The notes under the pieces were generated by a model. The model ran no database searches and had not been told where the DNA came from. It saw only the letters and a program-made list of their open reading frames with translations. A stretch of 64,000 nucleotides of DNA from Polyangiaceae bacterium (lineage in GTDB: Bacteria; Myxococcota_A; Polyangia; Polyangiales; Polyangiaceae). Positions 3,626-56,314 of the stretch are shown one piece after another (positions within the stretch are counted from its first letter, which is position 1; the number at the start of each line of letters is the position of its first letter). A program made the translations under genes and the position numbers. The DNA is taken from contig JAXLYP010000017.1 of the NCBI GenBank assembly GCA_046351395.1, positions 1,508 to 65,507 on the forward strand. Direction: 5' to 3'.

Positions 3626-6600
3626 TCAGATGGTCTCCGTGGGAGGGGCGGGCGTGGCGAGGAGCTCGTGCACCGCCGATCGCAGGTCGCTCATCGAGTA
3701 GGGCTTCGAGAGCAACGAAACCGCCTGGTGCTCGACCCCGTACCGGACGACGGCGTCGTCCGGGTAGCCGCTCGTGTAGAGGACACGGATGTGGGGGTGG
3801 GTCGAGGCGAGCGCTTGCGCGAGAGACCGACCATCCATCCGGGGCATCACGACGTCGGTGACGAGCGCGTGGATCGGCCCCTGATGCCGCCGCGCGAGCT
3901 CGAGTCCCTCGACCCCGTCACACGCTTGGAGGACGGTGTACCCCGCGGCCAAGAGCGCGCGCGCGGCGATGCGCCGGATCGGCAGCTCGTCCTCGACGAG
4001 CAGCACGGTCGCGGAGGCGCGCTCTCCCCCGTGCGCTTGTGGTGCTCGGCGTGCTTCGACCGCTTCTTCCACGATCGGCAGGTACACGCGGAACGTGGCG
4101 CCAGCGCCGGGCTCGCTGCTCACCTCGACGTGGCCCCCGCTGCCGGACACGATCCCGTGCACCACGGAGAGCCCAAGCCCCGTTCCCCGCCCGACGCCCT
4201 TCGTCGTGAAGAACGGCTCGAACAGGTGCGCCTGCACGTCGGGCGTGATCCCCGAGCCGGTGTCGCTCACGGAGATCACGACGCACCCGCCGGCGCAGGG
4301 CCTTCGGCACTCGCCGTCCCTGGCGCGGCGGGTCGAGATCGTGAGGCGGCCGCCGCGGGGCATCGCGTCCCGTGCGTTGACGGCGAGGTTCATGAGCACC
4401 TGCGTGAGCCCGCCAGCATCGCTCTTCACGCGTACGGTCCCTGCGTCGAGCGCGATCGCGAGGTCGATGTCCTCGCCAAGGACCCGGCGGAGCATCTTCT
4501 CGGTCTCGAGGATCACGGCGTTGAGCTCGAGGACGCGCGGCTCGACGACCTCGCGACGGCTGAACGCGAGGAGTTGACGCGTGAGCGCCGCTGCGCGCTC
4601 GCCCGCCTCGCGGATCTCCCTTACGAGCGTCCCCCCGACGGACGACGGCGCAACCTCGTCCCCGAGCAGCTCGCAGCACCCGTGGATGACGGTGAGCAAG
4701 TTGTTGAAGTCGTGCGCGACGCCGCCCGCGAGGACGCCCACCGACTCCATCTTCTGCGTCTGCCGGAGCTGGGCCTCGAGCTCTCGACGCTCGGTGACGT
4801 CCTGCGCCGAGCCGGCGACGCGCACGACCCGGCCCGCGGCGTCCCGCACGGGGAACCCGCGATCGCGCACCCAGCGGACGACCCCGTCGGGGCGCACGAC
4901 GCGGTACTCCTCGTCGTACGTGCCCAATGTCTGCTTCGGGAGCGCCGCGATCACCCTCGCCCTGTCCTCCGCGTGGATCGCCTCGAGCCACGCTTGGGGG
5001 TTGTCGCGGAGCTCGCCCACTGGACGACCCCAGATCCGCTCGTAGCCGGGGCTCACGTAGACCATCTCGCGCTTGCCCGGATCCGTGAGCCAGAACGCCT
5101 CTTCGATCGTGTCGGCGAGCTGGCGAAAGCGCCCCTCGCTGTCCTTGAGAGCTTCCTCGACGTGCTTGCGCGCGGTGATGTCCTGGAGGACGACGAGCAC
5201 GTACACTTCGCCGCTCAGCGTCATCGACCTCGACGACACCAGCGTGTTCCGGATCTCGCCCGACGGCAGGTAGACCGGCACGTCGAAGAGGTCCGTGATC
5301 TCGCCGCCCATCGCGAGCTCCACCTTGAACGCGGCGCGCACCTCCGGGGGGCCGAACGGCAGGCTCGCGGTCGTCGCGCCGAGCGTCGCCTCCCGGGTCC
5401 GATCGAAGAGGCGGAGCGCCGCCTCGTTCACCTCGACGATTCGACTGTCCGCCGCGCGTACGAGGAGCTTCGCGATGGGGCTCTCTTCGAAGACGGTGGC
5501 GAATCGGCGCGTCGACTCCGCGAGGGCGTCCTCGAGTTGCCGCTCCGCGGTGAGGTCGGTCATCGCCGCCACCATTCCCCGGAGCGTGCCGTCCTCTCGC
5601 TTCAATGGCCCGACGGACAGTCGCACCGGCACGAGCCGGCCGTCGCGTGCGGAGCGTTCCGTGACCAAGTCGCGCACGATCTCGCCCCCCGCCACGGCTC
5701 TCCGAAGGGCGACGAGCTCTGCTTCGCGTTCGATGGGCAGCAGCATGAGCGGCTGCCCGAGGACCTCGTCCGCAGTCCACCCGAACACGCGCGTGGCCGC
5801 CGCGCTCCAGAGCACCATCTTGCTCGACGCGTCCATTGCCATGATCGGCATGGGGGCAGCGTCGACGATCGCCTTGACCTCCCCCAGCGCGAGGCGCTGC
5901 GCCTCCTCCCTGTCGCGTCGCTCGGTGACGTCGACCGAGAGGATGAAGATGCCCCGAGGCTGGGGCTGCACGCTCAGATCGAACCAGCGCACGCGCCCGT
6001 CCGGGAACGAGAACTCGGTCTCGAAGTGCGCTGGGACGCGGGAGCGCATGACCCCATCGAGGGTCGCGAAGAGCGGGGAGGCCTCGACACCCGGGTAGAG
6101 CTCGAGGACCGTCTTGCCCACCATTTGGTCCGGACGCAGCCCCGACTGCGCGCACACCGCCTCGTTCACGTAGAGGTAGCGCCAGTCGAAGTCGATGACC
6201 TGACACCCCTCGACCATGTGGTCCAGGAGCGAGCGGTAGAGCTCCTCCGCCCCACGCAGCTCCTCTTCGGTGCGCTTCTGCTCCGTGATATCGAGGACCG
6301 TCAGCAGCAAGCCCGTCCCGCCCTCCATGGGCACGGGGCTGATCCTCCCCTCGAACCAGCGCCTGCGCCCGTCGAGGAGGACGGCGCGTGGCGGGAGGTA
6401 CTGTTGCTCTCCGCGGCGAGCGTCGACGTGCTTCTGTCGGGCTTCGGCCGTCGCCTGCGGGAAGAGTTCGAAAATCTCCCGACCGAGGACGTCGTTCAAC
6501 CGTCGCCCAGCGGTCACGAGCCACGCGTCGTTCGCCATCATCACGTGGCCACGCGGGTCGAGCAGACAGAGACCGGCGCCGGCTTGGTCGAAGATCGTGT

Positions 6601-6658
6601 CGAGCAGGCTGGCGGCAGGTGGTTGGCTGGCGTTCGGTTGCTCCTCTACCCCAGCCAT
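3626..6658 (-). CDS. Hybrid sensor histidine kinase/response regulator with multiple PAS domains
   Basis: 1010-aa ORF. At least four or five PAS/PAC-like blocks, each followed by a coiled-coil (e.g. ...DITEQKRTEEELR, ...DVTERRDREEAQ, ...DLTAERQLEDAL, ...DITARKHVEEAL, ...DVTERRELEAQL). HisKA H-box VAHDFNNLLTVI. HATPase_c N/G boxes (NLAVNARDAM, DTGSGI, GLGLSVV). C-terminal receiver domain (LLVEDE...DVVMP...SGY). Confidence 0.9.
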   Translation of the reverse strand: MAGVEEQPNASQPPAASLLDTIFDQAGAGLCLLDPRGHVMMANDAWLVTAGRRLNDVLGREIFELFPQATAEARQKHVDARRGEQQYLPPRAVLLDGRRRWFEGRISPVPMEGGTGLLLTVLDITEQKRTEEELRGAEELYRSLLDHMVEGCQVIDFDWRYLYVNEAVCAQSGLRPDQMVGKTVLELYPGVEASPLFATLDGVMRSRVPAHFETEFSFPDGRVRWFDLSVQPQPRGIFILSVDVTERRDREEAQRLALGEVKAIVDAAPMPIMAMDASSKMVLWSAAATRVFGWTADEVLGQPLMLLPIEREAELVALRRAVAGGEIVRDLVTERSARDGRLVPVRLSVGPLKREDGTLRGMVAAMTDLTAERQLEDALAESTRRFATVFEESPIAKLLVRAADSRIVEVNEAALRLFDRTREATLGATTASLPFGPPEVRAAFKVELAMGGEITDLFDVPVYLPSGEIRNTLVSSRSMTLSGEVYVLVVLQDITARKHVEEALKDSEGRFRQLADTIEEAFWLTDPGKREMVYVSPGYERIWGRPVGELRDNPQAWLEAIHAEDRARVIAALPKQTLGTYDEEYRVVRPDGVVRWVRDRGFPVRDAAGRVVRVAGSAQDVTERRELEAQLRQTQKMESVGVLAGGVAHDFNNLLTVIHGCCELLGDEVAPSSVGGTLVREIREAGERAAALTRQLLAFSRREVVEPRVLELNAVILETEKMLRRVLGEDIDLAIALDAGTVRVKSDAGGLTQVLMNLAVNARDAMPRGGRLTISTRRARDGECRRPCAGGCVVISVSDTGSGITPDVQAHLFEPFFTTKGVGRGTGLGLSVVHGIVSGSGGHVEVSSEPGAGATFRVYLPIVEEAVEARRAPQAHGGERASATVLLVEDELPIRRIAARALLAAGYTVLQACDGVEGLELARRHQGPIHALVTDVVMPRMDGRSLAQALASTHPHIRVLYTSGYPDDAVVRYGVEHQAVSLLSKPYSMSDLRSAVHELLATPAPPTETI

Positions 6659-9234: not shown

Positions 9235-10218
9235 TCAGCGGGCGGCGAGCGAATAATAGTAGATGACCGCCGGATCCCGGTCGTCGCGGTACGCGCCATG
9301 GCCCTCGGGATCCATCAGCGCCGCGGCCGAGAGCGCGATTCGATGAGCGAGCGAGGCGCGGCAACCGACTGTCGGTCGCGCGAGCAGCATTGGGCGCGTG
9401 GCGCTCCAACCCTCGAGCGCGCGGAGCGCTGCGGGCGCGAGGCCCTCGATCACGTGGCCCCACACGAGCCTTCGGTTCGCGGCGTCGTACGCGCAGACAA
9501 TGTCGGCCGGCACGCGGCGACGCTCGGCCCCCGAGACATCGAAGAAGACCAATGACCGCTCCTCGGGGTCGTAGTTGAAGCCGCCTCCGTCCTCGTAGCC
9601 GACGTACGCGTCGACCTCCCGCTGTCGGCGCTCGACCTCGGGCTCCGCGTCGCGCAGCATCGCGATGAACGGCTCGGTGAGCAAGCAGTGACGCGCGACG
9701 TCGGGGGCGACCCGTTCGACGTGGAGGGGCGAGGCACTCGGGGCTGCACCGTGCACCTCCAGGACCAGCCCGTCGCCGTCTCGGCGGAGAGTGAGCGCGC
9801 GGCTCGTCCACGGCGTGCCGGCGGCGCTGGTCAACGCCGCGATCTCGTCCGCGATCTCGGCGGCGTCGACCGCGGCGCCCGTTGGGTCGCCGAGGTTGGG
9901 CTTCGGCAGCGCTGGGCGGTGCGCGACGGCGCCGACGCGTTGGAGCGCGTGGTGACCGTCGGCGGCGCGATCGAAGACGACGTCGAGCATGTCCCAAGGG
10001 TGTGGCGCGAGGACCGCCAGAGCGTCGTGGAGCGCGAGCGCGAGCGCCGAGAATCCCATGTCGACGCCGAGCGTACGCGGGCGTCGTCGGCGTGTCGCGG
10101 CCGAGCTCGGTTCGTCGGCGACGAGCCCGGTCGATACGCTACCTTCCGCGACGATCGCGCGCTTTGCCCCGTGCTCTTCGGGGGTCGGACGATCGGTCAA
10201 AGGCGGAGGAACGAACAC
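9235..10218 (-). CDS. Hypothetical protein
   Basis: 327-aa ORF with balanced, non-Arg-biased composition (e.g. YVGYEDGGGFNYDPEERSLVFFDV, IYYYSLAAR). No recognisable motif. It lies in the right position between neighbouring genes. Confidence 0.45.
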   Translation of the reverse strand: MFVPPPLTDRPTPEEHGAKRAIVAEGSVSTGLVADEPSSAATRRRRPRTLGVDMGFSALALALHDALAVLAPHPWDMLDVVFDRAADGHHALQRVGAVAHRPALPKPNLGDPTGAAVDAAEIADEIAALTSAAGTPWTSRALTLRRDGDGLVLEVHGAAPSASPLHVERVAPDVARHCLLTEPFIAMLRDAEPEVERRQREVDAYVGYEDGGGFNYDPEERSLVFFDVSGAERRRVPADIVCAYDAANRRLVWGHVIEGLAPAALRALEGWSATRPMLLARPTVGCRASLAHRIALSAAALMDPEGHGAYRDDRDPAVIYYYSLAAR

Positions 10219-10244
10219 CGTATCCTTCGCGAACCATCGAATTC

Positions 10245-12605
10245 ATGGCCCACCCGCCCGACGCTCCGACCCCGCCCGAGCCACCTCATCCGTGGATCGG
10301 TCGAACCCTCCGCGACAAGTGGCGGATCGATGGCTTGCTCGGCAAAGGTGGAATGGCGACCGTCTTCTCCGCCACCCATCGGAACGGGATGCGCGGCGCC
10401 ATCAAGGTGCTCAACGCTTCGACCGGCGAGTCCGCGGACGCGCGCGCGCGCTTCATCCGCGAGGGGCGCGCGGCGAATCGGATCGATCACCCGGGTGTGG
10501 TGAAGATCCTCGACGACGACGTGACGGAGGACGGGCTCACCTTCCTCGTGCTCGAGATGCTCGAGGGCGAGACCTGGAAGGATCGCTGGCGCGCCCATGA
10601 TAGGCGCCTGCCCGTGCGCGAGACGATCGAGATCGCGACCGAGGTGCTCGACGTCCTCGCGGCGGCGCACCGCGCGGGGGTCATCCATCGCGACGTGAAG
10701 CCGGACAACGTGTTCCTGTGCAAGGGGACCGGCGACCTCCGCGGACCGGTGAAGCTCCTCGACTTCGGGATCGCGCGCCTGCGCGAGGTCGCGGGGGAGG
10801 CGACGGCGGACGGCGCGACGCTCGGCACGCCCGCGTTCATGTCGCCGGAGCAGGCGCTCGCGCACACGGAGCAGATCGATCACCGCAGCGACCTCTACGC
10901 CGTCGGCGCGACGCTCTGGACGCTCCTCAGCGGGCGTCTGGTGCACCCCGCGGCGACGGCGCCCGCGCTGCTCATCGCAGCAGCGACGACGCCCGCGGCA
11001 CCGTTCTCGAGCGTGATGCCGGACGCCCCAGCCGACCTCGCGGGCGTGATCGACCGCGCGCTCGCGTTCGACAAGGAGGCGCGGTGGGCGGACGCGGACG
11101 CGATGCGGGAGGCGCTGCGGCGCACGCTCGACGCGCCGGCGGTCGCGACCCTCCGCGCGGGCGTCGCGAGGTTCGAGGATCTGTCCGCGCCGACGGAGCG
11201 GTCGGGGGCCGCCGTCGCGAAGACGATCAAGCTCGACGCCTCACCCCTTCAGGCGACCGACTTCGGCGCCCAAAAGACGCTCGCGCAAGCGACGGCCGCT
11301 GCGCCCACGCCGAGGCGGTCGTCGGCGCGCGCCCTGATCGGCGCTGGCGCGGTGATCGCGGTCGGCGCGGGGGTCGCGGTGCTCGTCTCGACGATCGGGG
11401 GCGCCTCGACGTCGACCGCGCGGCCGAGCGCCTCGAGCGCGCCCACCCCGTCGAGCGCCCCTCCTCCTTCCACGCCCGAGCCGGTCGCCTCTGCGGCGCC
11501 GCCGGGCGCACACCAGGCGAAGAACCTCTTCGCGGGGCTCTACAGCACGTGCGCGGTTCGCAAGGACGGGCGTGTCGTCTGTTGGGGCAACGATCCCAAG
11601 GTCGGTGTGACCAAGTCCGCGCCGGGGCCCGCGCTCGTGAAGCGCCTCGAGGATCCGCGCTCCCTCGCGATCGGGGAGGCGGTGGACCTCGCGATCGTGC
11701 CCGCGGGCGCCGCCGGCCCGCGGCTGATCGGTTGGGGAAAGAACGTGAGCGAACTGCTCGGGACCAGCGTCCCGGACGGCGCCGTCGTCGACGTCGAGCA
11801 CGCGGTCGACCTCGAGATCCCGGGGGCGACGGACGTCGCCGTCGGCATGGTCTACGACGAGACGAGCGCGTGCGCCGTCGTCGACGGCAAGATCGAGTGT
11901 TGGGGGCGCGCCGGGCTCGCCCGGAAGGGGGCGATGAGCGAAGATCGAGCACCCCTCGCGATCCGCCTCGTCGCGGGCCCGTTCGAGCTGCCTGCGCGCC
12001 ACGTCGGCCTCGGCGCGAGCGACTTCGCGTGCGCGCTCGGCCAGAACGACGACTTCGTGTCCTTCGGGTGTTGGGGGACGGACCACCCGGAGCTCACACG
12101 TCAACGGGATCCGAAGTCGCGCTCCACCGATCAGTTCTGGGGCGCGTCGCCCTTGGACGCCTGGGCGGTGGGGCCGAGCGGCGCGTGCTTCACGAGCGGG
12201 CGATCCGTGACCTGTTGGGGAGGTGTCGCGCGGTGCGACGAGTCCGCCGAAGCGCCGCCCATGTTCGTCGAGGAACCGTCGAGTTCCATCGCCGTCGCGG
12301 GAGACCACCAATGCCTCGTCAGCGCGTCCGGGAAGCTCGCGTGCTGGGGGCGGGCGAGCTCCGCGACCGGCGATCCCAAGGAGAAGCGAGGGACCCTCGA
12401 GTGCAGCCCCGTCCCCGTGCCGCTCCCGGACAAGGCCACGAAGGTCGTCGTTGGAGGGGCCCACACCTGCGCGCTCACCGCCTCCGGAGACGTTTATTGT
12501 TTCGGTCGCAACGACGCAGGACAGCGCGGCTGCGGCGACGAGATCGAGACCCCCGTGCCGTGCCGTGTATCCCTGGACGTCCACTCGAGCGCATCGAGGC
12601 CCTGA
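10245..12605 (+). CDS. Ser/Thr protein kinase with TM segment and C-terminal RCC1-like repeat domain
   Basis: ORF 9882..12605 trimmed to ATG 10245 (MAHPPDAPT...). Kinase motifs GKGGMATVF, AIKVL, HRDVKPDNV, DFG and SPEQ. TM helix ALIGAGAVIAVGAGVAVLV. C-terminal repeats of the form xCAVxxDGxVxCWG (CAVRKDGRVVCWG, ACAVVDGKIECWG, ACFTSGRSVTCWG, CLVSASGKLACWG, TCALTASGDVYCFGRNDAGQRG), typical of RCC1/beta-propeller repeats. Confidence 0.85.
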   Translation: MAHPPDAPTPPEPPHPWIGRTLRDKWRIDGLLGKGGMATVFSATHRNGMRGAIKVLNASTGESADARARFIREGRAANRIDHPGVVKILDDDVTEDGLTFLVLEMLEGETWKDRWRAHDRRLPVRETIEIATEVLDVLAAAHRAGVIHRDVKPDNVFLCKGTGDLRGPVKLLDFGIARLREVAGEATADGATLGTPAFMSPEQALAHTEQIDHRSDLYAVGATLWTLLSGRLVHPAATAPALLIAAATTPAAPFSSVMPDAPADLAGVIDRALAFDKEARWADADAMREALRRTLDAPAVATLRAGVARFEDLSAPTERSGAAVAKTIKLDASPLQATDFGAQKTLAQATAAAPTPRRSSARALIGAGAVIAVGAGVAVLVSTIGGASTSTARPSASSAPTPSSAPPPSTPEPVASAAPPGAHQAKNLFAGLYSTCAVRKDGRVVCWGNDPKVGVTKSAPGPALVKRLEDPRSLAIGEAVDLAIVPAGAAGPRLIGWGKNVSELLGTSVPDGAVVDVEHAVDLEIPGATDVAVGMVYDETSACAVVDGKIECWGRAGLARKGAMSEDRAPLAIRLVAGPFELPARHVGLGASDFACALGQNDDFVSFGCWGTDHPELTRQRDPKSRSTDQFWGASPLDAWAVGPSGACFTSGRSVTCWGGVARCDESAEAPPMFVEEPSSSIAVAGDHQCLVSASGKLACWGRASSATGDPKEKRGTLECSPVPVPLPDKATKVVVGGAHTCALTASGDVYCFGRNDAGQRGCGDEIETPVPCRVSLDVHSSASRP

Positions 12606-16141: not shown

Positions 16142-16780
16142 CTAGGGCAAACCCCCAATGCGCTCGAACGTCACGAAGTTGTAGTCGGCGCTCCCGGACG
16201 TGTTCCAGGTGGGCGGCGCGTCGTGGTGGAAGTTCAGGGACAGCTTCTGGCCCTTCGTGCAGCGCGTCGTCACCGTCCCCATGATCCGCGCATAAGTCTC
16301 GGTCGTCGAGAGATCGTGGATCACCGTCGCCGTTCCGCCCTCGACGGTCAGGTTCAGGCTCATGTTGGCGCCCCCGACTGGCAGCGTCCCCGCAGGGAAC
16401 TCGAGCGCCGCCGTCACGCGGTAGAGACCGGCGACGGGGCAGGCGTAGTCCCCCGTGTTGGGGTTCATCGCGTCGTCCGTGTCGTAGTCCTTGGTGTAGC
16501 CCACGACTTTCACGCCCGGTCCGGCCGCGAGCATCTGGCTCGCGTTCTGTGTGTAGCGCGCGGCCACGGTTCGCTCAAGCGCCACGAGGCGATCGTCCGC
16601 CTCCTTGAACAGCTTAAGGAGGCTCGAGGCCGAGACCGGCTTGCCGGTGTCGATCCATTGGGTGTCTGCCATCCAGGTCGCGTGTGCGCTCGTGACGAGG
16701 CCGGCGGAGAGCGCGAGCGCGCAGGCGAACGCCGCGCGCTTCACGCGAGGAGATGCTTCGATTTCGATCCGGATTCGCAT
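16142..16780 (-). CDS. Secreted protein (hypothetical; possible C1q/TNF-like beta-sandwich C-terminal domain)
   Basis: ATG 16780 gives MRIRIEIEASPRVKRAAFACALALSAGLVTSAHA (signal peptide). The remainder of the long ORF 16142..18385 upstream is Arg-rich junk. Confidence 0.55.
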   Translation of the reverse strand: MRIRIEIEASPRVKRAAFACALALSAGLVTSAHATWMADTQWIDTGKPVSASSLLKLFKEADDRLVALERTVAARYTQNASQMLAAGPGVKVVGYTKDYDTDDAMNPNTGDYACPVAGLYRVTAALEFPAGTLPVGGANMSLNLTVEGGTATVIHDLSTTETYARIMGTVTTRCTKGQKLSLNFHHDAPPTWNTSGSADYNFVTFERIGGLP

Positions 16781-16803: not shown

Positions 16804-18255
16804 TCAGGCCGCCGCGGGCGCCGGCGCGGGCTCCGGTGGGGAGGGCGGAGCCGCCCAGCGGCCGCGCTGGAACAGGACCCCGGCGAGCACGGCTTGAGAC
16901 GAGTAGGCGATCGCGATCGCGATGAACACTCCGCGGGGGCCGAGCCCGACGACCTCGGACAAGAGATACGCGAGCGGGATCTTCACGCCCCAGAAGCAAA
17001 TGACGTTCACGACCATCGGGATGCTCGTCTTGCCCGCGCCATTGAACGCTTGGATCGCGACCATGCCGTACCCGAAGAACAGGAAGCCGAGCGCGACGAT
17101 CCGAAGACACTCGACGCCGTACGCCTCGATCACGGGGACGTCCGTGAAGAGGCGAATGAGGGGGTGCGCGAGCGCCACGAAGACGACGCTCACCACACCG
17201 AGGAACGCGACGTTGTACTTCGCGATCGTGTTCACCGCGCGCTTCGCGCGCTCCGGCTGCTTCGCTCCGAGGTTCTGTCCCACGAGCGTGGCCGCCGCGT
17301 TGCCGAGGCCCCAGCACGGGAGCAGCACGAAGATCGCGATCCGGATCGCGAACGTGTACCCCGCGAGCGCGTCGCTCCCGTGGAGCGAGAGGATGCGCAC
17401 GAGGCCGAGCCAGCTCGCCGTCTCGATCAGCGTTTGGAAGCTCGCGCCGACGGAGACCTTGAAGACCTCGCGGATCACGTCCAGCTGGACGCGCACGTGG
17501 CGCGCGAGGACCACGAGCCGGCGCTTGCCGCCGAGGAGCATGAACACCTGGAACGCGACGCCCACGCCGCGGCTCACGGTCGTCGCCACGGCGGCGCCCG
17601 TGACGCCCATCCGCGGGAACGGGCCCAACCCGAAGATGAGGCAGGGGCTCAACGCCATGTTGAGGAGGTTCGAGATCCAGAGCGTGCGCATCGAGATCGT
17701 CGCGTCGCCGGTGCCGCGGAACGCGGCGTTGATCACGAACAGCAAGAAGATCGTCACGCTCCCGCCGAGCATCACCGCCGTGTAGCTCGAGCCCGTCGCG
17801 ACGAGGCTCGGCTCCGCGCCCATCGCCGCGAGGAGGCGCGGCGCGAAGATGGCGCCCACCCCGCCCACGACCGCGGCGAGCAGGACGCTGAGGCCGATGA
17901 CCTGCACGGCGGCGTTGGACGCGCCCTCCGAGTCCTTCTCCCCCGTCTTTCGCGCGATGATCGCGGTCGCCGCGGCGGACATGCCCATCGCGAGGGCGTA
18001 GATGATCGACAGCATCGCCTCCGTGAGGCCGACCGTCGCGACCGCGTCCGCGCCGAGGCGCGACACGAACAACATGTCGACGACCGTCAGCAGGGACTCC
18101 ATCGACATCTCGAGGACCATCGGGACCGCGAGGAGGATCACGGCGCGCTCGAGCGGCACGCGCGTCATGTCGTCGTCCGTGCCGCGCACCGCGGCGCGGA
18201 GGGTCGCCCAGAGGGAAGGTCGTTCGGCCGTGGGTGTGGCGGGGTCGGCTGTCAT
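16804..18255 (-). CDS. MATE family efflux transporter
   Basis: ATG 18255 (MTADPATPTAERPSLWATLRAAV...). 483 aa with 12 predicted TM helices. Typical MATE N-terminus (RAVILLAVPMVLEMSMESLLTVVDMLFVSRLGADAVATVGL) and Q-rich loops. The upstream part of ORF 16804..19236 is junk. Confidence 0.85.
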   Translation of the reverse strand: MTADPATPTAERPSLWATLRAAVRGTDDDMTRVPLERAVILLAVPMVLEMSMESLLTVVDMLFVSRLGADAVATVGLTEAMLSIIYALAMGMSAAATAIIARKTGEKDSEGASNAAVQVIGLSVLLAAVVGGVGAIFAPRLLAAMGAEPSLVATGSSYTAVMLGGSVTIFLLFVINAAFRGTGDATISMRTLWISNLLNMALSPCLIFGLGPFPRMGVTGAAVATTVSRGVGVAFQVFMLLGGKRRLVVLARHVRVQLDVIREVFKVSVGASFQTLIETASWLGLVRILSLHGSDALAGYTFAIRIAIFVLLPCWGLGNAAATLVGQNLGAKQPERAKRAVNTIAKYNVAFLGVVSVVFVALAHPLIRLFTDVPVIEAYGVECLRIVALGFLFFGYGMVAIQAFNGAGKTSIPMVVNVICFWGVKIPLAYLLSEVVGLGPRGVFIAIAIAYSSQAVLAGVLFQRGRWAAPPSPPEPAPAPAAA

Positions 18256-18397
18256 GCGATGTCCAGTGTCCGTCCCGCCCCTTTTGCCGCGAGAACGCTC
18301 GCGTGGCCACCGAGACGTGCGACCCGCCAAGGACCTGACCCCGGAACCAAGAATCGCTCGACGGACGCGCTCTCCACCAACACACTGGAGCCGGTCG

Positions 18398-19131
18398 ATG
18401 GTCTCCCGAGGCGCCGTCATCCTGGTCTTCGTCGCGATCCTCGCGGGCTGTGGCGCGTCGGCCCGGAGCCCGTTCGATCCGCGCGTCATGGAGCGGCGGC
18501 TCGCGTGCACGTCGTACGAGACGGCGACCGACGCGACGCTTCCGGGCCCGCCCCCGCTCTCTCGCGACGGCCGGGCCCGGTCGGACTTCGACCTCGAGCG
18601 GCGAGGGGAGACCCCCGAGCCCGGGCGGCCGAGCGATCTGATGGCGGAGGCGACCGAGCTCTTCGACGCGCGGCCGTGCCGCTGCTCCAGCGCGTCATCC
18701 GCCGCGAGGGGCAGGACGACGCGGGCAACGTGGAGCTCGCCACCTATCAGCTCGGCGTCGCCTACTACCACTCCGGGCTCTTCACGGCGTCCCTCGACGC
18801 GTTCGCGCCCATCGCGTCGGACCCCGCGCACCTGATGCACCACGAGACCCTCTATTGGCTCGTCGATCTGGCGCTCGAGGAGGAGACGAACCTGAAGGCG
18901 ATCGACCTCAGTTATCAGTACCTCGGGGAGAACTACTACGAGCTCGACTCGACGAACCGCGAGCTCGAATACCTCATCCAATACATTTGGGGCCGCGCCT
19001 ATTACCGCGTGGGCCTCTGGGACCAGGCGATCCGCAAGATGGAAGCGGTCGCGCGCGATCCTCGCTTCGCCCGCATCGCGACCGATTGCGCGAGCCTCGC
19101 GAAGCAGTTCGTGCACCCGCCCGGCGAGTGA
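18398..19131 (+). pseudogene. TPR-repeat lipoprotein (BamD/YbgF-like) interrupted by an apparent frameshift near 18690
   Basis: ATG 18398 preceded by GGAG gives MVSRGAVILVFVAILAGCGAS (lipobox). That frame reads ...DLMAEATELFDARP and then low complexity. A second frame from about 18685 reads ...LLQRVIRREGQDDAGNVELATYQLGVAYYHSGLFTASLDAFAPIASDP...YYRVGLWDQAIRKMEAVARDPRF (TPR-like) and runs to the stop at 19131. The two halves join into one plausible TPR lipoprotein only across a 1-nt frame change. Confidence 0.5.
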
Positions 19132-19222
19132 GCGCACGCGATGGGCCTCGGTGTTGCGCCGCGTGCGCGAGGGCGCGCGGCCGCGACGCAGCGCTCCCGA
19201 GGAGGGGGGCGTGCGGCGCGGC

Positions 19223-20332
19223 TCACTCGCTCCCAACGTCTTTCGGGAGCAGCTCGCGCGCGACCTGGATGCGGAGAATCCCGTCCTTCACGCGCTGGTC
19301 GTCGCCCGTCTTCTCTCCTTCCATCACGAGCCGGAAGCCGAACTCACAGCCATTCAAGTAGCGGATCCACGCGGCGAAGACCTGGCGGAAAGGCTCCTCG
19401 GGCGAGAAGCGCTCGGCGCGCTTCACCTCGGCGGCCCACGCGGGGACGACGCGCTCCTCGAGGATCGAGGCGAACCGAGCGCGGTCGATCTCCTTCGCGC
19501 GGAGGGACGCGCTCGCCGCCTCATAGTCCTCCAGGATGGCCGCGATCGCCGCGCGGCTGCGCTCGATCTCCGCGCTCGTGCGCGACTCCGGGCTCGGCCC
19601 GGCGGTCACCGCGAGGACCCACACCACCGCGCTCAGGGCGAACACGCCCGCTCGTCTCAGGCGCGCGTCCCACGGGGGCGCGCGTCTCCGGGCGTCGAGC
19701 ACGAGCGCGGCCGCGTACCCCACGACGAACCCTCCGAAGTGCGCCGCGAACCCGAGCTCGCGCATCGCGAGGCCGGGCACGAGCGTGAGCACCGTCATCG
19801 TGAGCACCTTGATGACGAGCCACCTCCGCGCCGCCTCCGGGATCCGCTCCCTCTGCAGCCGGACCTCCGCGAGGAGGGCGCCGTACATCCCCATGATCGC
19901 GCCCGACGCGCCGATGTAGACCACGTCCGGCTGCCACCACGCGCTCGCGAGCGCGCCCGCGAGGCCCGACAGCAGGTACACGCCGACGAACGCGACGTTG
20001 CCGAGGATGGCCTCCGCGGCTCGGCCGATGAGCCACATGCCGAACAGGTTCGCCGCGAGGTGGAGCACCCCGTAGTGCAAGAACATCGACGTGAGCATGC
20101 GCCACGACTCCGCGCGGAGGGCGCGGCCGTGGAGCCCTCCCCATGCGCGGAGCGACGCCGTCGTCGGCGCGAGGACGGACACGCCCTGCGTCGCGAGCGC
20201 CGCGAGCACGGCGACGTTCGCGACCATCAGCACGTAGACGACGTAGACGCGCGCTCCGAGCGACGCGACGAACGCCCGCTCCGCAGCGCGGCCGCTCGTG
20301 CGTGGGGGTGGGGTCTCGTCTCGCCCCTCCAT
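19223..20332 (-). CDS. Rhomboid family intramembrane serine protease with C-terminal soluble extension
   Basis: ATG 20332 (MEGRDETPPP...). Six TM helices. Catalytic GASGAIMG (GxSG) and the His in AHFGGFVVG. The ATG overlaps the TGA stop of the upstream kinase (cgcTGATGgag). Confidence 0.8.
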   Translation of the reverse strand: MEGRDETPPPRTSGRAAERAFVASLGARVYVVYVLMVANVAVLAALATQGVSVLAPTTASLRAWGGLHGRALRAESWRMLTSMFLHYGVLHLAANLFGMWLIGRAAEAILGNVAFVGVYLLSGLAGALASAWWQPDVVYIGASGAIMGMYGALLAEVRLQRERIPEAARRWLVIKVLTMTVLTLVPGLAMRELGFAAHFGGFVVGYAAALVLDARRRAPPWDARLRRAGVFALSAVVWVLAVTAGPSPESRTSAEIERSRAAIAAILEDYEAASASLRAKEIDRARFASILEERVVPAWAAEVKRAERFSPEEPFRQVFAAWIRYLNGCEFGFRLVMEGEKTGDDQRVKDGILRIQVARELLPKDVGSE

Positions 20333-22338
20333 CAGCGCGCGAGCTGTGCGCGCAGCGCTCCGCAGCGCTCGCCGAGCCAGAACTGAAGGAGAGTCTGTCG
20401 ACGACCCCGTCGACGGTGAGCACCCCCGCGGCTGGCGGAGTGCGCGTGGATACCGCGGAGCGCGCTGCCGAGGTCGCCCGTGACGACGAGCGCGGCGCGC
20501 GCGGCGGTCGCGTGTGCTCCCCGGATCGTGCGCCCCAGATCCGCGACGGAGGCCGACTGCAACAGGCGATCGACCTTCTCGCCGAGCGCGTCGCGCTCCG
20601 CGGGCCGCAAGTTCTGTCGGAGCATCGCGGTGATCGGCGCCGTCTCCGCGTGCATCGCCGCGGACCGCCCCGTCGCTTCGGCGAGGCTCGTCACGAGGTT
20701 CCGGAGGTTCTCGGTCGTCCCGAAGAAGTGCGCCGCGTAGAGCTCGGGCCGGAGGCGCGCGAGGGATCGCGCGGCCACGAAGAGCGCGCGCGGTGGTGAG
20801 AGGATCGCGAAGAACGACGCGCTCGCAACGCACGTCGGCGGCGCGCCGTGGTGGACCGCGACGGGGACGGCGCTCTCCGCTCGCACGAGGACGCGGGGCG
20901 TGTGGATGGCGAGGAGCGCCGCCGCGCGGAGCACCGCCGCGAGCGGCTCGGATGGCGGCGTGTGAGGGTCGAGGGGCCACGTGCGTTCGCCGGCGGGCGC
21001 GCTTCGCGCGCCGCTCGCGCGCGCGCGCGGCGCGGCCGCGCCGCCAAGTACGTCCACGAGGGGCAGCGCGAGATCCTCGTGCAAGAGCGCGCGCCACGCG
21101 GCATCGTCGAGCGGGACCGTCAGCGTCGCGGGGCGAGGGGGAGCGCCCGCGAGCGCCGCCTCGCTCGGCGACGCGTCCTTGAATGCGGAGAGGAGGGTCG
21201 CCGCTCTCCACGAAAGATCGCCGTCCCCCGTGCTTGCAGCGAACGAGAGGAGCTCGCGGACGAGCCGCGGCTGGCGCGGCGTGCGCTCGAACTCCGCGCG
21301 CACGTGCGCGATCGGCCGGCGACCGCCCGTGACTTTCGCCGGCTCGTCCGGCTCGACGAGATCGGGGTCGATCTCGTCGATCTCGTCGATCTCGTCGATC
21401 TCGCCGATCTCGTCGATCTCCTCGAAGTCCGCGGGATCCAGGAACTCCTCCTGGGCGCCGCCCCCCAGGAGGACCGGTCGGAGCGCCTCGAACGCCTCGC
21501 GGGCGCTCGGAAAGCGGCGCGCCGGATCGCGCGCCACCGCGACGAGGAACCACGCGTCGAAGCCTGGCGGGAGCGCGCCGCGCACGCCGCGCCGCGCCGC
21601 GCGCACACTCGGCGCCTCGATGGGATCCATGATCACCTCGCGCAGAAGGGCGTGCACGCTCGAGTCGGAGTCCGTCGCCGCGTTCCAATAGTACGCGCCC
21701 GTGAGGACCCGAAACGCGATGAGACCGAGCGCCCACACGTCCGTCGCCGGGGTGATGCGGCCCTTCGAGTCGGACTGCTCGGGCGCCATCCAGAGCGGCG
21801 TGCCCATCGATTGCGTCGCCTGGCTCACCGCGCTCGCGACGACCTTCGCGATCCCGAAGTCGAGGATCTTCACGTGGAGGTCGGCGCCGATCCTCCGCGA
21901 TCGGGCGAGGAACACGTTCTCCGGCTTGAGGTCGCGGTGCACCACGCCGCGCGCGTGCGCCGCGGCGAGCCCGTGGCAGAGCTGCGCGAGGATCACCGCG
22001 GCGTCCGCGGCGCTCTTCGCGCCCGCGCGCGTGAGGTGCGCGGCGAGATCTTCCCCGGAGAGCAGCTCCATCGCGAGGAACGGCGTCCCCGTCGGAGCGT
22101 CGACGCCGGCCGCGACCACCTCGACGACGTGGTCGCTCTCGATCGACGCCGAGATCCGCGCTTCCTGCACGAAGCGCTCGCGGAGGCGCGCGTCGCTCAC
22201 CAGGTTCGGGTGCATGAGCTTCAGGGCGCGCTGGCGGCCCGTGGAGAGCTGCTCGGCGACGAACACCGAGCCCATCCCGCCCGCGGACAACGGCCGAAGG
22301 ACGCGGAAATCGCCGCCTACGATCGCGCCCGCCTTCAT
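20332..22338 (-). CDS. Ser/Thr protein kinase with acidic (EID)n repeat linker and long C-terminal domain
   Basis: MKAGAIVGGDFRVLRPLSAGGMGSVF, ALKLMH, HRDLKPENV, DFG and APEQ. Linker FEEIDEIGEIDEIDEIDEIDPDL is encoded by a 9-nt tandem repeat. The stop overlaps the rhomboid start. An RBS (GAGGAG) lies 5 nt upstream of ATG 22338. Confidence 0.8.
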   Translation of the reverse strand: MKAGAIVGGDFRVLRPLSAGGMGSVFVAEQLSTGRQRALKLMHPNLVSDARLRERFVQEARISASIESDHVVEVVAAGVDAPTGTPFLAMELLSGEDLAAHLTRAGAKSAADAAVILAQLCHGLAAAHARGVVHRDLKPENVFLARSRRIGADLHVKILDFGIAKVVASAVSQATQSMGTPLWMAPEQSDSKGRITPATDVWALGLIAFRVLTGAYYWNAATDSDSSVHALLREVIMDPIEAPSVRAARRGVRGALPPGFDAWFLVAVARDPARRFPSAREAFEALRPVLLGGGAQEEFLDPADFEEIDEIGEIDEIDEIDEIDPDLVEPDEPAKVTGGRRPIAHVRAEFERTPRQPRLVRELLSFAASTGDGDLSWRAATLLSAFKDASPSEAALAGAPPRPATLTVPLDDAAWRALLHEDLALPLVDVLGGAAAPRARASGARSAPAGERTWPLDPHTPPSEPLAAVLRAAALLAIHTPRVLVRAESAVPVAVHHGAPPTCVASASFFAILSPPRALFVAARSLARLRPELYAAHFFGTTENLRNLVTSLAEATGRSAAMHAETAPITAMLRQNLRPAERDALGEKVDRLLQSASVADLGRTIRGAHATAARAALVVTGDLGSALRGIHAHSASRGGAHRRRGRRQTLLQFWLGERCGALRAQLAR
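21368..21425. repeat. 9-nt tandem repeat (gatctcgtc) x~6.5 encoding (EID)n in the kinase linker
   Basis: Direct reading: gatctcgtcgatctcgtcgatctcgtcgatctcgccgatctcgtcgatctcctc. Confidence 0.8.
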
Positions 22339-30690: not shown

Positions 30691-31176
30691 TTACTCGGCG
30701 ATCTTCGCGAACACGTCGTCGCGGAGGCGCTTTGCGTCCGCCACGTCGATGCCGAACGCATCGCGGATGTCGCCCTCGAGCGCGATCTCCTCGTCCGTCG
30801 TCGCGAAGTCGACGAGCGTCATCGCGAACGCGAGTTGAAAGGCGAGGCGCCGCGTCGAGTCGCTCGTGAGGCTCGCGCCGATCTCCTTCAGCCGAACGAG
30901 CTCCCGGCCCGTGGGCACGCGCCGGGCGAATGTACCGAGCAACGTCTCGATATCGAGCTCCGAGAGCGGCGGCGCCTCCGGGTCGACGAGCCCACGGAGG
31001 CGCAGCGCGAGGTTCCGAAACGCGTCGAGCTCCTCCTCCGGGACCTCGCGATCGATCGCCATCGCGACGTACGCGACCTCGAGCAGCGCGTTCGCTTCGA
31101 TCGGCTGAAGCACCACCTTGCCCACCGGGGGAAGAACGAGCACGACACGCGCGCTCCAGGAGTTCGGTCCGCTCAT
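30691..31176 (-). CDS. TerB-like (tellurite-resistance TerB family) protein
   Basis: ATG 31176 (MSGPNSWSARVV...). Two helical halves with the TerB-like pattern (EANALLEVAYVAMAIDREVPEEELDAFRNLALRLRGL; RRLAFQLAFAMTLVDFATTDEEIALEGDIRDAFGI). The upstream part of ORF 30691..31707 is Ser/Arg junk. Confidence 0.5.
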   Translation of the reverse strand: MSGPNSWSARVVLVLPPVGKVVLQPIEANALLEVAYVAMAIDREVPEEELDAFRNLALRLRGLVDPEAPPLSELDIETLLGTFARRVPTGRELVRLKEIGASLTSDSTRRLAFQLAFAMTLVDFATTDEEIALEGDIRDAFGIDVADAKRLRDDVFAKIAE

Positions 31177-31240
31177 GGATCCGGACACGATAGAACATCT
31201 TGCGCACGCCGCCCCAGAGCTCACGGAGCATCGCGCATCG

Positions 31241-32185
31241 TCACCTCGCGGCTCCCGGTCGGCGCCGCCGATCGACGAATCGGACGAAGCGCTGGGCGAG
31301 GCCGCTGCGTGGAGCGTTCGACGGGAAGATGGCGTAGACCGGCGGCGAGGCGAGCCGGTACGCGGGGAGGATCTCGACGAGCCGCTGCGCCTCCAGATCG
31401 TGGGCTGCCATCGCAGAGGGAACCATCGCGACGCCCGCTCCGCCCCGCGCCAATCCGACGAGCGCGGCGGCGGCGTCCGCGGTGACGCGCGCGCGGAACG
31501 GGAGCTCGACGCGCGCGTCCGTGGCGCGTGAGAAGAACTCGGCGACGGGCGGGCGCGAGCGGAGCCCGATCCAGTCCCAACTCGCGAGGTCGCGCGGATG
31601 CGATGGCGCCGCGCGCTCCGCAGCGTACGCGGGGCTCGACACGAGCTTGCGCTCGAAGTCGAACAGCCGCCGGGCGAGGAGCGCGCTGTCGCGCAGCGCC
31701 CCCGCACGGATCGCCAGGTCCATGCCCTCGTCGACGACGTCGACCTGCGTGTCCGATAGATGGAGGCTCACGGCGACGCGGGGGTGCGCGCGCGCGAAGG
31801 CCGCGAGATCCTCGTACAGCGCATCGGTGAGGATCGCGGCCGGAGCCGCGACGCGGAGTGTTCCCTTCGGGCTGTCCGCGAGGTCCCCTACGGCGCTCAC
31901 CCCCTCTTCTGCGGCCGCGATCATCACGCGCGCAGACGCGAGCAGCGCCGCGCCCGCCTCGGTGAGCGTGACCGATCGAGTCGTCCGGTAAAGGAGGGCG
32001 ACGCCGAGCGCGGCCTCGAGCTCGGAGACGTGGTGGCTCACGACCGACGGCGAGAGGCCGAGCGCGGACGCCGCGCCACGAAACGATCCGAGCTCCGCGG
32101 TGCGCGCGAACACCGCGATCGCCCGGAGGTGGTCGAGGGACCGGGGGCGGGAGCGCGTCGGGGCCACTGTTCGATTCTGTCGCAC
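31241..32185 (-). CDS. LysR family transcriptional regulator
   Basis: N-terminal HTH (LDHLRAIAVFARTAELGSFRGAASALGLSPSVVSHHVSELEAALGVALLYRTTRSVTLTEAG) and a LysR substrate-binding domain. Tracker start is GTG 32185; the true start may be slightly downstream. Divergent from the SnoaL-like gene. Confidence 0.8.
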   Translation of the reverse strand: MRQNRTVAPTRSRPRSLDHLRAIAVFARTAELGSFRGAASALGLSPSVVSHHVSELEAALGVALLYRTTRSVTLTEAGAALLASARVMIAAAEEGVSAVGDLADSPKGTLRVAAPAAILTDALYEDLAAFARAHPRVAVSLHLSDTQVDVVDEGMDLAIRAGALRDSALLARRLFDFERKLVSSPAYAAERAAPSHPRDLASWDWIGLRSRPPVAEFFSRATDARVELPFRARVTADAAAALVGLARGGAGVAMVPSAMAAHDLEAQRLVEILPAYRLASPPVYAIFPSNAPRSGLAQRFVRFVDRRRRPGAAR

Positions 32186-55469: not shown

Positions 55470-56314
55470 CCGGCACTCCCCCGCGCTGCATCGTTCAGGG
55501 GCTCGCCGAGGCGGATGGGCCCGAGCTCTCGATGGAGCGACGGCACGCTCGGCTCCGTGAACACGACCGCGGTCGAGCCGAGGTGGAACACCCCGATCTC
55601 GCCAGCGCGCTCGACCTGGTAGGCCGGCTCGAGGGTGTGCGTGCCGATCTCGACGTCGTGGTGATCGAGCATGGGCACGGTGATGCGGCCGACGATCATC
55701 GCCCCCACCATGACCACCGTCACCCGGCCGTGCGTCGGTGAGTCGATGGGGATCGCGACGCGCCGGTTGATCGAGAAGAGCGAGCGCACGTGGCGCTCGC
55801 CGATCGCGTTCACCGGGAACAGATCCCCGGGCATCGAGCGAATCGCGCGGACCTCGCCGCCGACGGGCGCGTGCACGCGGTGGTAGTCCCGGGGGGACAG
55901 GTAGATCACGGCGAAGCTTCCGCCCTCGTACCGCGTCGCCTCGTGGGTGCTGCCGAGCAGCTCGTCGGCGCGGTAGTCGCGCCCCTTGATCTGGAACCGC
56001 CCGCTCGACGTGATCGGGCCGATCGCCTCGAGCCGCCCGTCCGCGGGGCTCACGACCGTCTCGCTCGGCGCGTGAATCGCGCGCGCACCCTCGCGGAGCC
56101 GACGCGTGAAGAACGCGTCGAAGCTCTCGAAGCCTCCCTCGGGGTGGATCGCCTCATCGAGGTCCACGGAGTACGCGCGCGAGAAGATCCCGACGACGGC
56201 CGACGACACGGACGCGGAGATCGCCGCGTCCGCCAAGCGACCGACCGCGCGCGTGATCCTCACGCGAGGTAATACGCGAAGGAGCTGCGCCGCAGCGAAG
56301 GTGGCCACGCTCAT
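55466..56314 (-). CDS. psd: Phosphatidylserine decarboxylase proenzyme
   Basis: 282 aa. Psd self-cleavage motif FHLGSTAVVF (LGST). Conserved YLSPRDYHRVHAP and FPVNA motifs. Confidence 0.85.
   Translation of the reverse strand: MSVATFAAAQLLRVLPRVRITRAVGRLADAAISASVSSAVVGIFSRAYSVDLDEAIHPEGGFESFDAFFTRRLREGARAIHAPSETVVSPADGRLEAIGPITSSGRFQIKGRDYRADELLGSTHEATRYEGGSFAVIYLSPRDYHRVHAPVGGEVRAIRSMPGDLFPVNAIGERHVRSLFSINRRVAIPIDSPTHGRVTVVMVGAMIVGRITVPMLDHHDVEIGTHTLEPAYQVERAGEIGVFHLGSTAVVFTEPSVPSLHRELGPIRLGEPLNDAARGSAG

What the first reader, a model, noticed from the sequence alone, without database searches (positions are those of the whole stretch)
18398..19131. BamD/YbgF-like TPR lipoprotein split across two reading frames
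The signal-peptide frame (ATG 18398, MVSRGAVILVFVAILAGCGAS, preceded by GGAG) degenerates into low-complexity sequence after ...ATELFDARP. Shifting one base at about 18690 yields a clean TPR protein ...LLQRVIRREGQDDAGNVELATYQLGVAYYHSGLFTASLDAFAPIASDPAHLMHHETLYWLV...YYRVGLWDQAIRKMEAVARDPRF that ends at 19131. If this is a BamD orthologue, an inactivating frameshift is unexpected, which makes a sequencing indel more likely. Together with the other two cases it suggests the assembly may carry indel errors.
Basis: partly seen in the sequence, partly recalled or inferred. Interest (0 to 1): 0.5.

Follow-up and report, generated by a model that had tools for sequence, protein, structure and literature searches.

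The report
TPR lipoprotein gene broken by deletion
A small membrane-anchored helical-repeat protein gene in a Polyangiaceae metagenome genome is broken by a 13-base deletion, so it is most likely an ordinary recent pseudogene, and it is not a damaged copy of the essential BamD gene.

Summary
Coding signal runs from ATG 18398 in one frame and switches frame exactly at 18669/18670, then runs to the stop at 19131. Seven homologues of 249-259 aa (62-69% identical) cover both halves as one protein. The five whose contigs were looked up all have a divergent MatE gene upstream, as here.

The lesion is not a one-base slip. DNA alignment with three orthologues shows 13 nt missing (four codons plus one base). 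The loss removes the turn and the conserved aromatic residue of the first helical hairpin.

A separate Logan assembly of run SRR14234094 is 100% identical over 18240-20188. The junction is therefore probably in the reads and not an assembler artefact. The rest of the gene keeps 109 of 118 family-invariant residues, so the lesion is recent.

BamD/YbgF membership fails: no YfiO/BamD match, YbgF scores 12 bits against a cutoff of 90, and fold matches are generic TPR. The closest named relative is the N-terminal TPR module of GltC-like gliding-motility scaffolds (hhalign 99.8%, E 2e-28).

Frame breaks in the window cluster in this gene and one RCC1-like gene. That pattern argues against scattered assembly indels. 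Verdict: an unannotated, recently inactivated lipoprotein gene of low interest.

The parts
18387..18390 (+). Shine-Dalgarno-like GGAG, 7 nt upstream of the start codon
   Evidence: Read directly from the sequence.
18398..18451 (+). Start codon, signal peptide and lipobox (MVSRGAVILVFVAILAGC). The lipid-modified Cys codon is 18449-18451.
   Evidence: Sequence. A Cys after a hydrophobic stretch sits at the same alignment column in all seven full-length homologues.
18398..18669 (+). 5' part of the gene, in phase 2 (residues 1 to about 91). It holds the signal peptide, a conserved linker motif (RSPFDPRVMERRLAC ... TPEPGRPSDLMA) and helix A of the first hairpin.
   Evidence: GC3 is 0.90-0.93. The Viterbi run is 18395-18669. 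tblastn frame +2 HSPs end at 18667/18670.
18665..18675 (+). Deletion junction (GACGC|GCGGCC). Thirteen nt are missing between about 18669 and 18670 relative to the orthologues, equal to four codons plus one base. The exact breakpoint is ambiguous within GCGCG.
   Evidence: DNA alignment A2 with L002, L006 and L009. Four query residues are skipped between the two HSPs. The spacing LxD-xxx-W-xx-A is invariant in all seven homologues and in GltC-like proteins.
18670..19131 (+). 3' part of the gene, in phase 1 (AAVPLLQRVI...HPPGE, stop TGA 19129-19131). It encodes the rest of the TPR-like domain.
   Evidence: GC3 is 0.86-1.0. The Viterbi run is 18670-19128. tblastn frame +1 HSPs are 71-76% identical.
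18671..18835 (+). Out-of-frame tail (about 54 aa, S/R/T/P-rich) that would be translated after the deletion, ending at stop 18833-18835.
   Evidence: Translation. GC3 in this phase drops to 0.55-0.69. No Pfam hit.
18676..19131 (+). The only CDS called here in the public record. It is 151 aa from GTG 18676 and is listed as 'MAG: hypothetical protein U0414_26510 [Polyangiaceae bacterium]' (MFO0616174.1). It is a fragment with no signal peptide and no helix A.
   Evidence: P0003 is 99% identical and covers 62% of the query. The N-terminal ORF product is not in the collection.
16804..18255 (-). Divergently transcribed MatE (MATE efflux) gene, uninterrupted. It is the conserved neighbour that marks the locus as orthologous.
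   Evidence: Pfam PF01554, E 5e-61. The same arrangement occurs in L002-L009.

Best explanation
Window 18398-19131 is a single gene for a lipoprotein of about 249 aa. The intact protein would have a lipid-anchored Cys, a flexible linker of about 55 residues and a domain of about 170 residues made of four to five TPR-like helical hairpins.

In the sequenced population the gene has been inactivated by a 13-bp deletion at 18669/18670. The deletion removes the turn and the conserved aromatic residue between helices A and B of the first hairpin. It also shifts the frame by -1.

Translation from ATG 18398 would give a 145-aa product made of 91-92 native residues and a 53-54-residue nonsense tail. 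The TPR domain downstream has no signal peptide and no evident ribosome-binding site. The locus is therefore most likely a recent pseudogene.

In its intact relatives the protein is probably a periplasm-facing scaffold that binds extended segments of other envelope proteins. This is inferred by analogy with the homologous N-terminal module of GltC.

Shown here: the split, the 13-nt gap, the intact orthologues, the homology to GltC-like N-terminal modules, and identity with a second assembly. Inferred: that the deletion is a true mutation, that function is lost, and the scaffold role.
For: **The split and the lesion**
- Seven homologues of 249-259 aa span both frames.
- Every orthologous locus looked up has one ORF next to a divergent MatE gene.
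- The 13-nt gap sits exactly at the frame switch.
- The spacing across the gap is invariant in the family, in GltC-like proteins and in about 170-aa relatives. A hairpin shorter by four residues has no precedent among them.

**Evidence that the deletion is real and recent**
- Logan contig L001 from SRR14234094 is 100% identical over 1949 nt, including the junction.
- The window keeps 109 of 118 residues that are invariant in the intact homologues. Its divergence lies within the family range.
- GC3 stays at 0.86 or higher in the 3' part. There is only one lesion.

**Structure and family**
- The AF2 model of homologue P0001 has a disordered stretch 1-71 followed by helical hairpins. pLDDT is 78-93 for residues 80-170.
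- hhalign of the family against GltC-like proteins gives probability 99.8%, E 1.9e-28, over 177 columns.
- GltC is described as a periplasmic TPR scaffold under the GltA/B/H outer-membrane barrels (PMC11761067).
Against: - No read pile-up could be examined.
- The Logan contig and the MAG probably derive from the same reads. A library artefact, or a co-existing intact allele in the population, therefore cannot be excluded.
- The gene shows no other decay. That is also what an artefact would look like.
- The platform of SRR14234094 is unknown (one search found no paper).
- The rest of the genome could not be searched for an intact paralogue.
- The function of the intact family is untested. The MatE linkage is not kept in a more distant relative (P0009), so context gives no functional clue.
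Confidence: 0.75

Rival explanations
1. Sequencing, library or consensus artefact. The organism's gene is intact, and the 13-nt gap arose during library preparation or assembly, or reflects a minority allele chosen as consensus.
For: - The source is a MAG.
- The gene is otherwise perfectly conserved.
- Another gene in the window also has several frame breaks.
Against: - A different assembler run on SRR14234094 gives the identical junction within a 1949-nt contig that matches 100%.
- A 13-nt loss is not the usual homopolymer-type error, and there is no homopolymer at the site.
- No long repeat flanks the site that could collapse a de Bruijn graph.
- Frame breaks are confined to two genes, while 2-3 kb neighbours are intact.
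Confidence: 0.15
2. A lineage-specific in-frame loss of four codons that is tolerated, plus a separate one-base sequencing error. The real protein would then be a functional, slightly shorter lipoprotein.
For: Five nt remain where the orthologues have 18. One extra base would restore the frame.
Against: - It needs two events where one suffices.
- The segment length is invariant in all seven homologues, in GltC-like proteins and in the 168-170-aa relatives. It also contains the conserved W/F/Y.
- The independent assembly shows no extra base.
Confidence: 0.04
3. The split is functional. Either a programmed -1 ribosomal frameshift joins the two frames, or the two halves are made and used as separate polypeptides.
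For: - The frame change is formally -1.
- The public annotation calls a 151-aa protein from GTG 18676.
- Domain-only calls of about 170 aa exist in the wider superfamily.
Against: - There is no X XXY YYZ slippery heptamer at 18655-18680.
- The junction coincides with a 13-nt loss, not with a conserved recoding site.
- No orthologue is split.
- The fragment starting at 18676 lacks helix A, a signal peptide and a Shine-Dalgarno sequence. The about 170-aa relatives start upstream of helix A.
Confidence: 0.03
4. It is the genome's BamD (or YbgF/CpoB) orthologue. The frameshift would then hit a core envelope-biogenesis gene.
For: - The size is about 245 aa, with a lipobox and TPR-like hairpins.
- BamD structures appear in the Foldseek list.
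- There are weak YbgF hits.
Against: - There is no PF13525 or TIGR03302 match for the window protein or its close homologues at E <= 0.1-1.
- YbgF scores 12-18 bits against a cutoff of 90.1.
- The BamD fold match (E 1.9e-3, TM 0.40, rmsd 8.7 A) is no better than LapB, MamA or designed TPRs.
- A PDB profile search finds only consensus TPRs.
- The family aligns with high confidence to GltC-like N-terminal modules instead.
- The neighbours are MatE and rhomboid genes, not tol-pal or bam genes.
Confidence: 0.02

Closest known systems
N-terminal TPR module of GltC-like proteins (GltC of the Myxococcus xanthus Agl-Glt gliding machinery; NCBIfam NF033756)
   Same: - Profile-profile alignment covers 177 columns at probability 99.8%, E 1.9e-28.
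- Shared motifs are LFDxxxWxxA, GDDxGN and HLxxxETLxWL.
- Both are predicted to lie in the periplasm.
- GltC is described as a TPR scaffold that organises N-terminal segments of outer-membrane barrels (PMC11761067).
   Different: - The length is about 250 aa against about 620 aa. Only the first third of GltC is matched.
- The NF033756 score is 16-17 bits for the window protein and P0001, against a cutoff of 450.
- This protein has a lipobox anchor.
- No glt genes are nearby.
- The copy in this window is disrupted.
BamD (YfiO; PF13525, TIGR03302)
   Same: It is a lipoprotein of about 245 aa built from TPR-like helical hairpins.
   Different: - There is no family HMM match.
- The structural match is generic for TPR proteins.
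- There is no link to bam genes.
YbgF/CpoB C-terminal TPR domain (TIGR02795)
   Same: Weak TPR-level similarity of 12-18 bits.
   Different: The score is far below the cutoff of 90.1. There is no tol-pal context.
Frameshifted genes annotated as truncated ORFs in metagenome-assembled genomes
   Same: A single disruptive indel is present. The public record calls only the downstream 151-aa piece, as a hypothetical protein.
   Different: The indel is 13 nt and is reproduced by a second assembly. It is therefore more likely a true mutation than a typical assembly indel.

Membership tests
BamD / YfiO | Match to PF13525 or TIGR03302 above the curated cutoff (81.4 bits) | tested here: not met
   There is no hit at E <= 1 (Pfam) or E <= 1 (NCBIfam) for the fused window protein. 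P0001, P0002 and P0008 give none at E <= 0.1. Only the distant relatives P0009 and P0018 reach 17-21 bits.
BamD / YfiO | Fold specifically closest to solved BamD structures | tested here: not met
   Foldseek against PDB gives BamD 3q5m at E 1.9e-3, TMq 0.40, rmsd 8.7 A. It is interleaved with LapB, MamA, designed CTPRs and kinesin light chain, and no hit reaches E <= 1e-3. The model is only moderately confident (pLDDT 64).
BamD / YfiO | N-terminal lipobox (outer-membrane lipoprotein) | tested here: met
   L-A-G-C lies at residues 15-18. A Cys is conserved at this column in all seven homologues. The feature is not specific to BamD.
BamD / YfiO | Single essential copy that associates with BamA | not testable with these tools
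   Only 64 kb of the genome is available. No other relative of this family lies in the window. The rest of the MAG could not be fetched.
YbgF / CpoB | Match to TIGR02795 above 90.1 bits, and a tol-pal operon context | tested here: not met
   Scores are 12.2 bits for the window protein and 14-18 bits for close homologues. The neighbours are MatE, rhomboid and Ser/Thr kinase genes.
TPR-repeat proteins | Tandem helix-turn-helix hairpins of about 34 residues that match TPR profiles | tested here: met
   - The AF2 model shows paired helices 85-95/99-110, 118-134/138-150, 157-168/175-182 and 197-213/217-228.
- The PDB profile search hits consensus TPR proteins at E 1e-10 to 1e-5.
- Pfam TPR_16 scores 22.7 bits for the window protein. 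This is below the gathering score of 32.7, so the repeats are divergent.
GltC (NF033756 equivalog) | Full-length match of about 620 aa above 450 bits | tested here: not met
   Scores are 16-17 bits for the window protein and P0001. The protein is 250 aa long. Only the N-terminal module is homologous.
GltC-like N-terminal module (homology, not orthology) | Significant profile-profile alignment with conserved motifs | tested here: met
   - hhalign gives 99.8%, E 1.9e-28, with positions 60-236 aligned to 38-215.
- A family profile finds proteins of 500-620 aa at E 1e-14 to 1e-20.
- Those proteins match NF033756 over nearly full length at 100-271 bits.
Bacterial lipoprotein | Positively charged n-region, hydrophobic h-region and a [LVI][ASTVI][GAS]C lipobox | tested here: met
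   MVSRGAVILVFVAILAGC, read directly from the sequence.
Pseudogene (disrupted orthologue) | Intact single-ORF orthologues at the syntenic position, with a frame-disrupting lesion here | tested here: met
Pseudogene (disrupted orthologue) | Lesion present in the DNA molecules, not only in the assembly | tested here: inconclusive
   The second assembly (Logan, SRR14234094) is identical. No reads could be inspected, and the sequencing platform is unknown.
Programmed -1 ribosomal frameshift | Slippery X XXY YYZ heptamer at the frame junction, conserved in relatives | tested here: not met
   The codons at the junction are GAG CTC TTC GAC GCG CGG CCG, which contain no heptamer. The relatives are unsplit.

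The most novel reading that the evidence does not exclude
The intact family (about 250-aa lipoproteins, with 364 cluster representatives at E <= 1e-3 in the wider superfamily) could be a stand-alone, membrane-anchored version of the GltC docking module. It would organise the periplasmic N-termini of outer-membrane beta-barrels outside the gliding machinery. The organism in this window would then be a natural knock-out of one such scaffold.
Probability: 0.2. Interest if true: 0.35.

Novelty: new member of a known kind. Interest (0 to 1): 0.12.

Why it matters
The main value is for annotation. The public record lists a 151-aa 'hypothetical protein' that is really the 3' part of a disrupted lipoprotein gene.

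The worry that an essential bamD gene is frameshifted, or that the assembly is riddled with indels, is unfounded.

A minor by-product is the link between an unnamed family of short lipoproteins in Polyangiaceae-type metagenome sequences and the N-terminal module of GltC. This gives a testable idea for what these proteins bind.

Tried and rejected
- **Genome collection, protein patterns.** A genome-contig scan with peptide patterns from alignment A1 gave 81 pattern matches, none confirmed by tblastn.
- **Genome collection, DNA pattern.** A genome-contig scan with a degenerate DNA pattern spanning the junction gave 0 hits. Neither the source genome nor any conspecific could be fetched.
- **Metagenome collection.** The same pattern in metagenome contigs found only the P0001 locus already known.
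- **Literature.** A search for SRR14234094 found 0 papers.
- **Structure library.** The afdb50 fold library was unavailable.
- **First frameshift scans.** The first two GC3-based scans were too noisy and missed the 5' half of the gene itself. A codon-usage Viterbi segmentation replaced them.
- **False frameshift candidates.** Candidates at about 10050-10395, 31134-31568 and 50960 turned out to be adjacent genes or a Ser/Thr/Gly-rich linker in an intact ORF.
- **Promoters and terminators.** The scan found none. This is uninformative for this phylum.
- **Local repeats.** The repeat search at the junction found nothing that explains the deletion. Microhomology at GCG remains an inference.
- **MatE functional link.** This was rejected because the more distant relative P0009 has a different context.

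Full report
**Observation**

The window is 71% G+C. Third-codon-position GC therefore marks the coding frame sharply.

- From ATG 18398 the phase-2 frame has GC3 of 0.90-0.93. The ATG is preceded by GGAG at 18387-18390.
- After about 18700, GC3 in phase 2 drops to 0.55-0.69. In phase 1 it rises to 0.86-1.0 and stays there until TGA 19129-19131.
- A codon-usage Viterbi segmentation trained on the window's own long genes puts the change at 18669/18670.
- The phase-2 reading past the switch is a 53-54-residue S/R/T/P-rich tail ending at 18835. It has no Pfam match.

**One gene, not two**

A search with the conceptually joined protein returned eight proteins.

- Seven are 249-259 aa long and 62-69% identical. 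They cover 88-97% of the query, that is, both halves.
- The eighth, P0003, is the 151-aa piece from GTG 18676. It is listed in NCBI as 'MAG: hypothetical protein U0414_26510 [Polyangiaceae bacterium]' (MFO0616174.1).
- The upstream ORF product is not in the collection.

tblastn with each full-length homologue against the window gives two collinear HSPs. One is in frame +2 and ends at 18667/18670. The other is in frame +1 and starts at 18652-18667. About four query residues are skipped between them in six of the seven homologues. For P0001 the two HSPs abut.

All contigs retrieved for P0001, P0006 and P0008 have a divergently transcribed MatE gene immediately upstream, as in the window. The short contig L008 has only a truncated, unidentified upstream ORF. 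The P0002 contig has only a 47-aa truncated, unannotated ORF upstream, so it cannot be judged. These are orthologues, and none is split.

**Nature of the lesion**

A DNA alignment with three orthologues shows a clean 13-nt gap in the window:

- Window: CTCTTCGACGC-------------GCGGCCGTGCCG
- Orthologue: CTCTACGACGACGCGGACTGGAAGGGCGCGGTGCCC

The gap equals four codons plus one base. It lies between the codons for LFD and AVP.

The spacing L-x-D-xxx-(W/F/Y)-xx-A is the same in all seven homologues, in GltC-like proteins and in about 170-aa relatives.

In the AlphaFold model of P0001 this segment is the turn between helices 85-95 and 99-110 of the first hairpin. pLDDT is 78-93 over residues 80-170.

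The deletion therefore removes a conserved structural element and also shifts the frame. There is no homopolymer, no slippery heptamer and no long repeat at the site. A GCG microhomology is possible but cannot be shown.

**Real or artefact**

A Logan contig was assembled independently from run SRR14234094. It carries the same 151-aa ORF and is 100% identical to window 18240-20188 over 1949 nt, with no gaps. The junction is therefore probably present in the reads and is not specific to one assembler.

I could not see reads or learn the sequencing platform. No conspecific sequence was found.

Apart from the deletion the gene looks healthy. It keeps 109 of the 118 residues that are invariant in the seven intact homologues, and most of the differences are conservative. 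Its divergence lies within the family range. This fits either a very recent mutation or an artefact.

I put about 0.75 on a genuine deletion giving a recent pseudogene, and about 0.15 on an artefact or minority allele.

**Does the assembly carry scattered indels?**

The Viterbi scan flags same-strand frame changes with no nearby stop codon at only a few places. After inspection, the only clear ones are this gene and an RCC1-repeat lipoprotein gene at about 37780-39974.

That gene changes frame at about 38498, 39036, 39465, 39555 and 39600. The break at 39555 lies in a (CG)7 run at 39553-39566.

Genes of 2-3 kb nearby are uninterrupted: 3653-6610, 51385-55489 and 58025-61219. So is the adjacent MatE gene. 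Breaks clustered in two genes point to gene-specific decay, or to a local problem in a repeat, and not to random indel error.

**What the protein is**

BamD/YbgF membership fails.

- There is no PF13525 or TIGR03302 match for the window protein or its close homologues.
- TIGR02795 scores 12-18 bits against a cutoff of 90.1.
- A family profile against PDB sequences finds only consensus or designed TPR proteins.
- Foldseek against the PDB lists BamD among LapB, MamA and designed TPRs. No hit reaches E <= 1e-3, and TM is about 0.4.

A profile search of 1.84 billion cluster representatives finds 364 relatives at E <= 1e-3 and 121 at E <= 1e-10. Most are 170-260 aa. The 500-620-aa ones match NCBIfam NF033756 (GltC) over nearly its full length at 100-271 bits, below its equivalog cutoff of 450.

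hhalign of the family against an alignment of these GltC-like proteins gives probability 99.8% and E 1.9e-28 over 177 columns, pairing family positions 60-236 with GltC-like positions 38-215. Shared motifs are LFDxxxW, GDDxGN and HLxxxETLxWL.

GltC is described as a periplasmic TPR scaffold. It sits under the GltA/B/H outer-membrane barrels and organises their N-terminal segments (PMC11761067).

By analogy, the intact short lipoproteins may be membrane-anchored docking modules for envelope proteins. This is inference. The protein is not a GltC orthologue: it has one third of the length, scores 16-17 bits, and has no glt genes nearby.

The MatE linkage holds only in the close clade, so it says nothing about function.

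**Verdict**

- It is a single TPR lipoprotein gene split between two frames.
- The cause is a 13-bp deletion that a second assembly reproduces.
- The gene is not bamD or ybgF.
- The window does not show a pattern of random assembly indels.

This is an ordinary, recently inactivated accessory gene that is mis-annotated as a 151-aa hypothetical protein. Interest is low.

Noticed in passing
window 37780-39974 (+): This is an RCC1-repeat lipoprotein gene. Its signal peptide ends LLAGC, with the Cys codon at 37870-37872, and the middle fragment scores Pfam RCC1_2 at E 2.5e-15. It changes reading frame at about 38498, 39036, 39465, 39555 and 39600, and individual repeats continue across the breaks. 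It is either a decayed pseudogene or a badly assembled repeat region.
   Followed up: partly
window 39553-39566: A (CG)7 dinucleotide run coincides with one of the frame changes in the RCC1-like gene. Such a tract is prone to slippage, which could be either a real mutation or an error.
   Followed up: no
window 20330-20334 (-): The stop codon of a Ser/Thr kinase gene (20332-22338) overlaps by one base the ATG of a rhomboid-family gene (19223-20332, Pfam PF01694, E 2e-31). The rhomboid gene carries a C-terminal extension of about 150 residues. The overlap suggests the two genes are translationally coupled.
   Followed up: partly
proteins P0015, P0022, P0027, P0071, P0072, P0120: Many superfamily members are called as 164-178-aa proteins that start with MTE(E/Q)AAxAKRLFD, exactly at the start of the TPR module. 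The same MTEEAA motif is internal in GltC-like proteins. These are either true domain-only proteins without signal peptides or gene calls with systematically truncated starts.
   Followed up: no
window 18398-19131; alignment A1: Two Cys residues are conserved in the family. One is in the linker motif RRLAC (residue 37) and one near the C-terminus in TDC (residue 232). They could form a disulfide that tethers the linker to the last helix. In this window they fall on opposite sides of the frameshift.
   Followed up: no
window 16142-16780 (-): Downstream of MatE lies a 212-aa secreted protein (MRIRIEIEASPRVKRAAFACALALSAG...) with no Pfam match at E <= 1e-3. In the orthologous loci L002 and L006 this position is taken by a 746-748-aa PhoD plus hemopexin protein. 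The synteny therefore breaks there.
   Followed up: no
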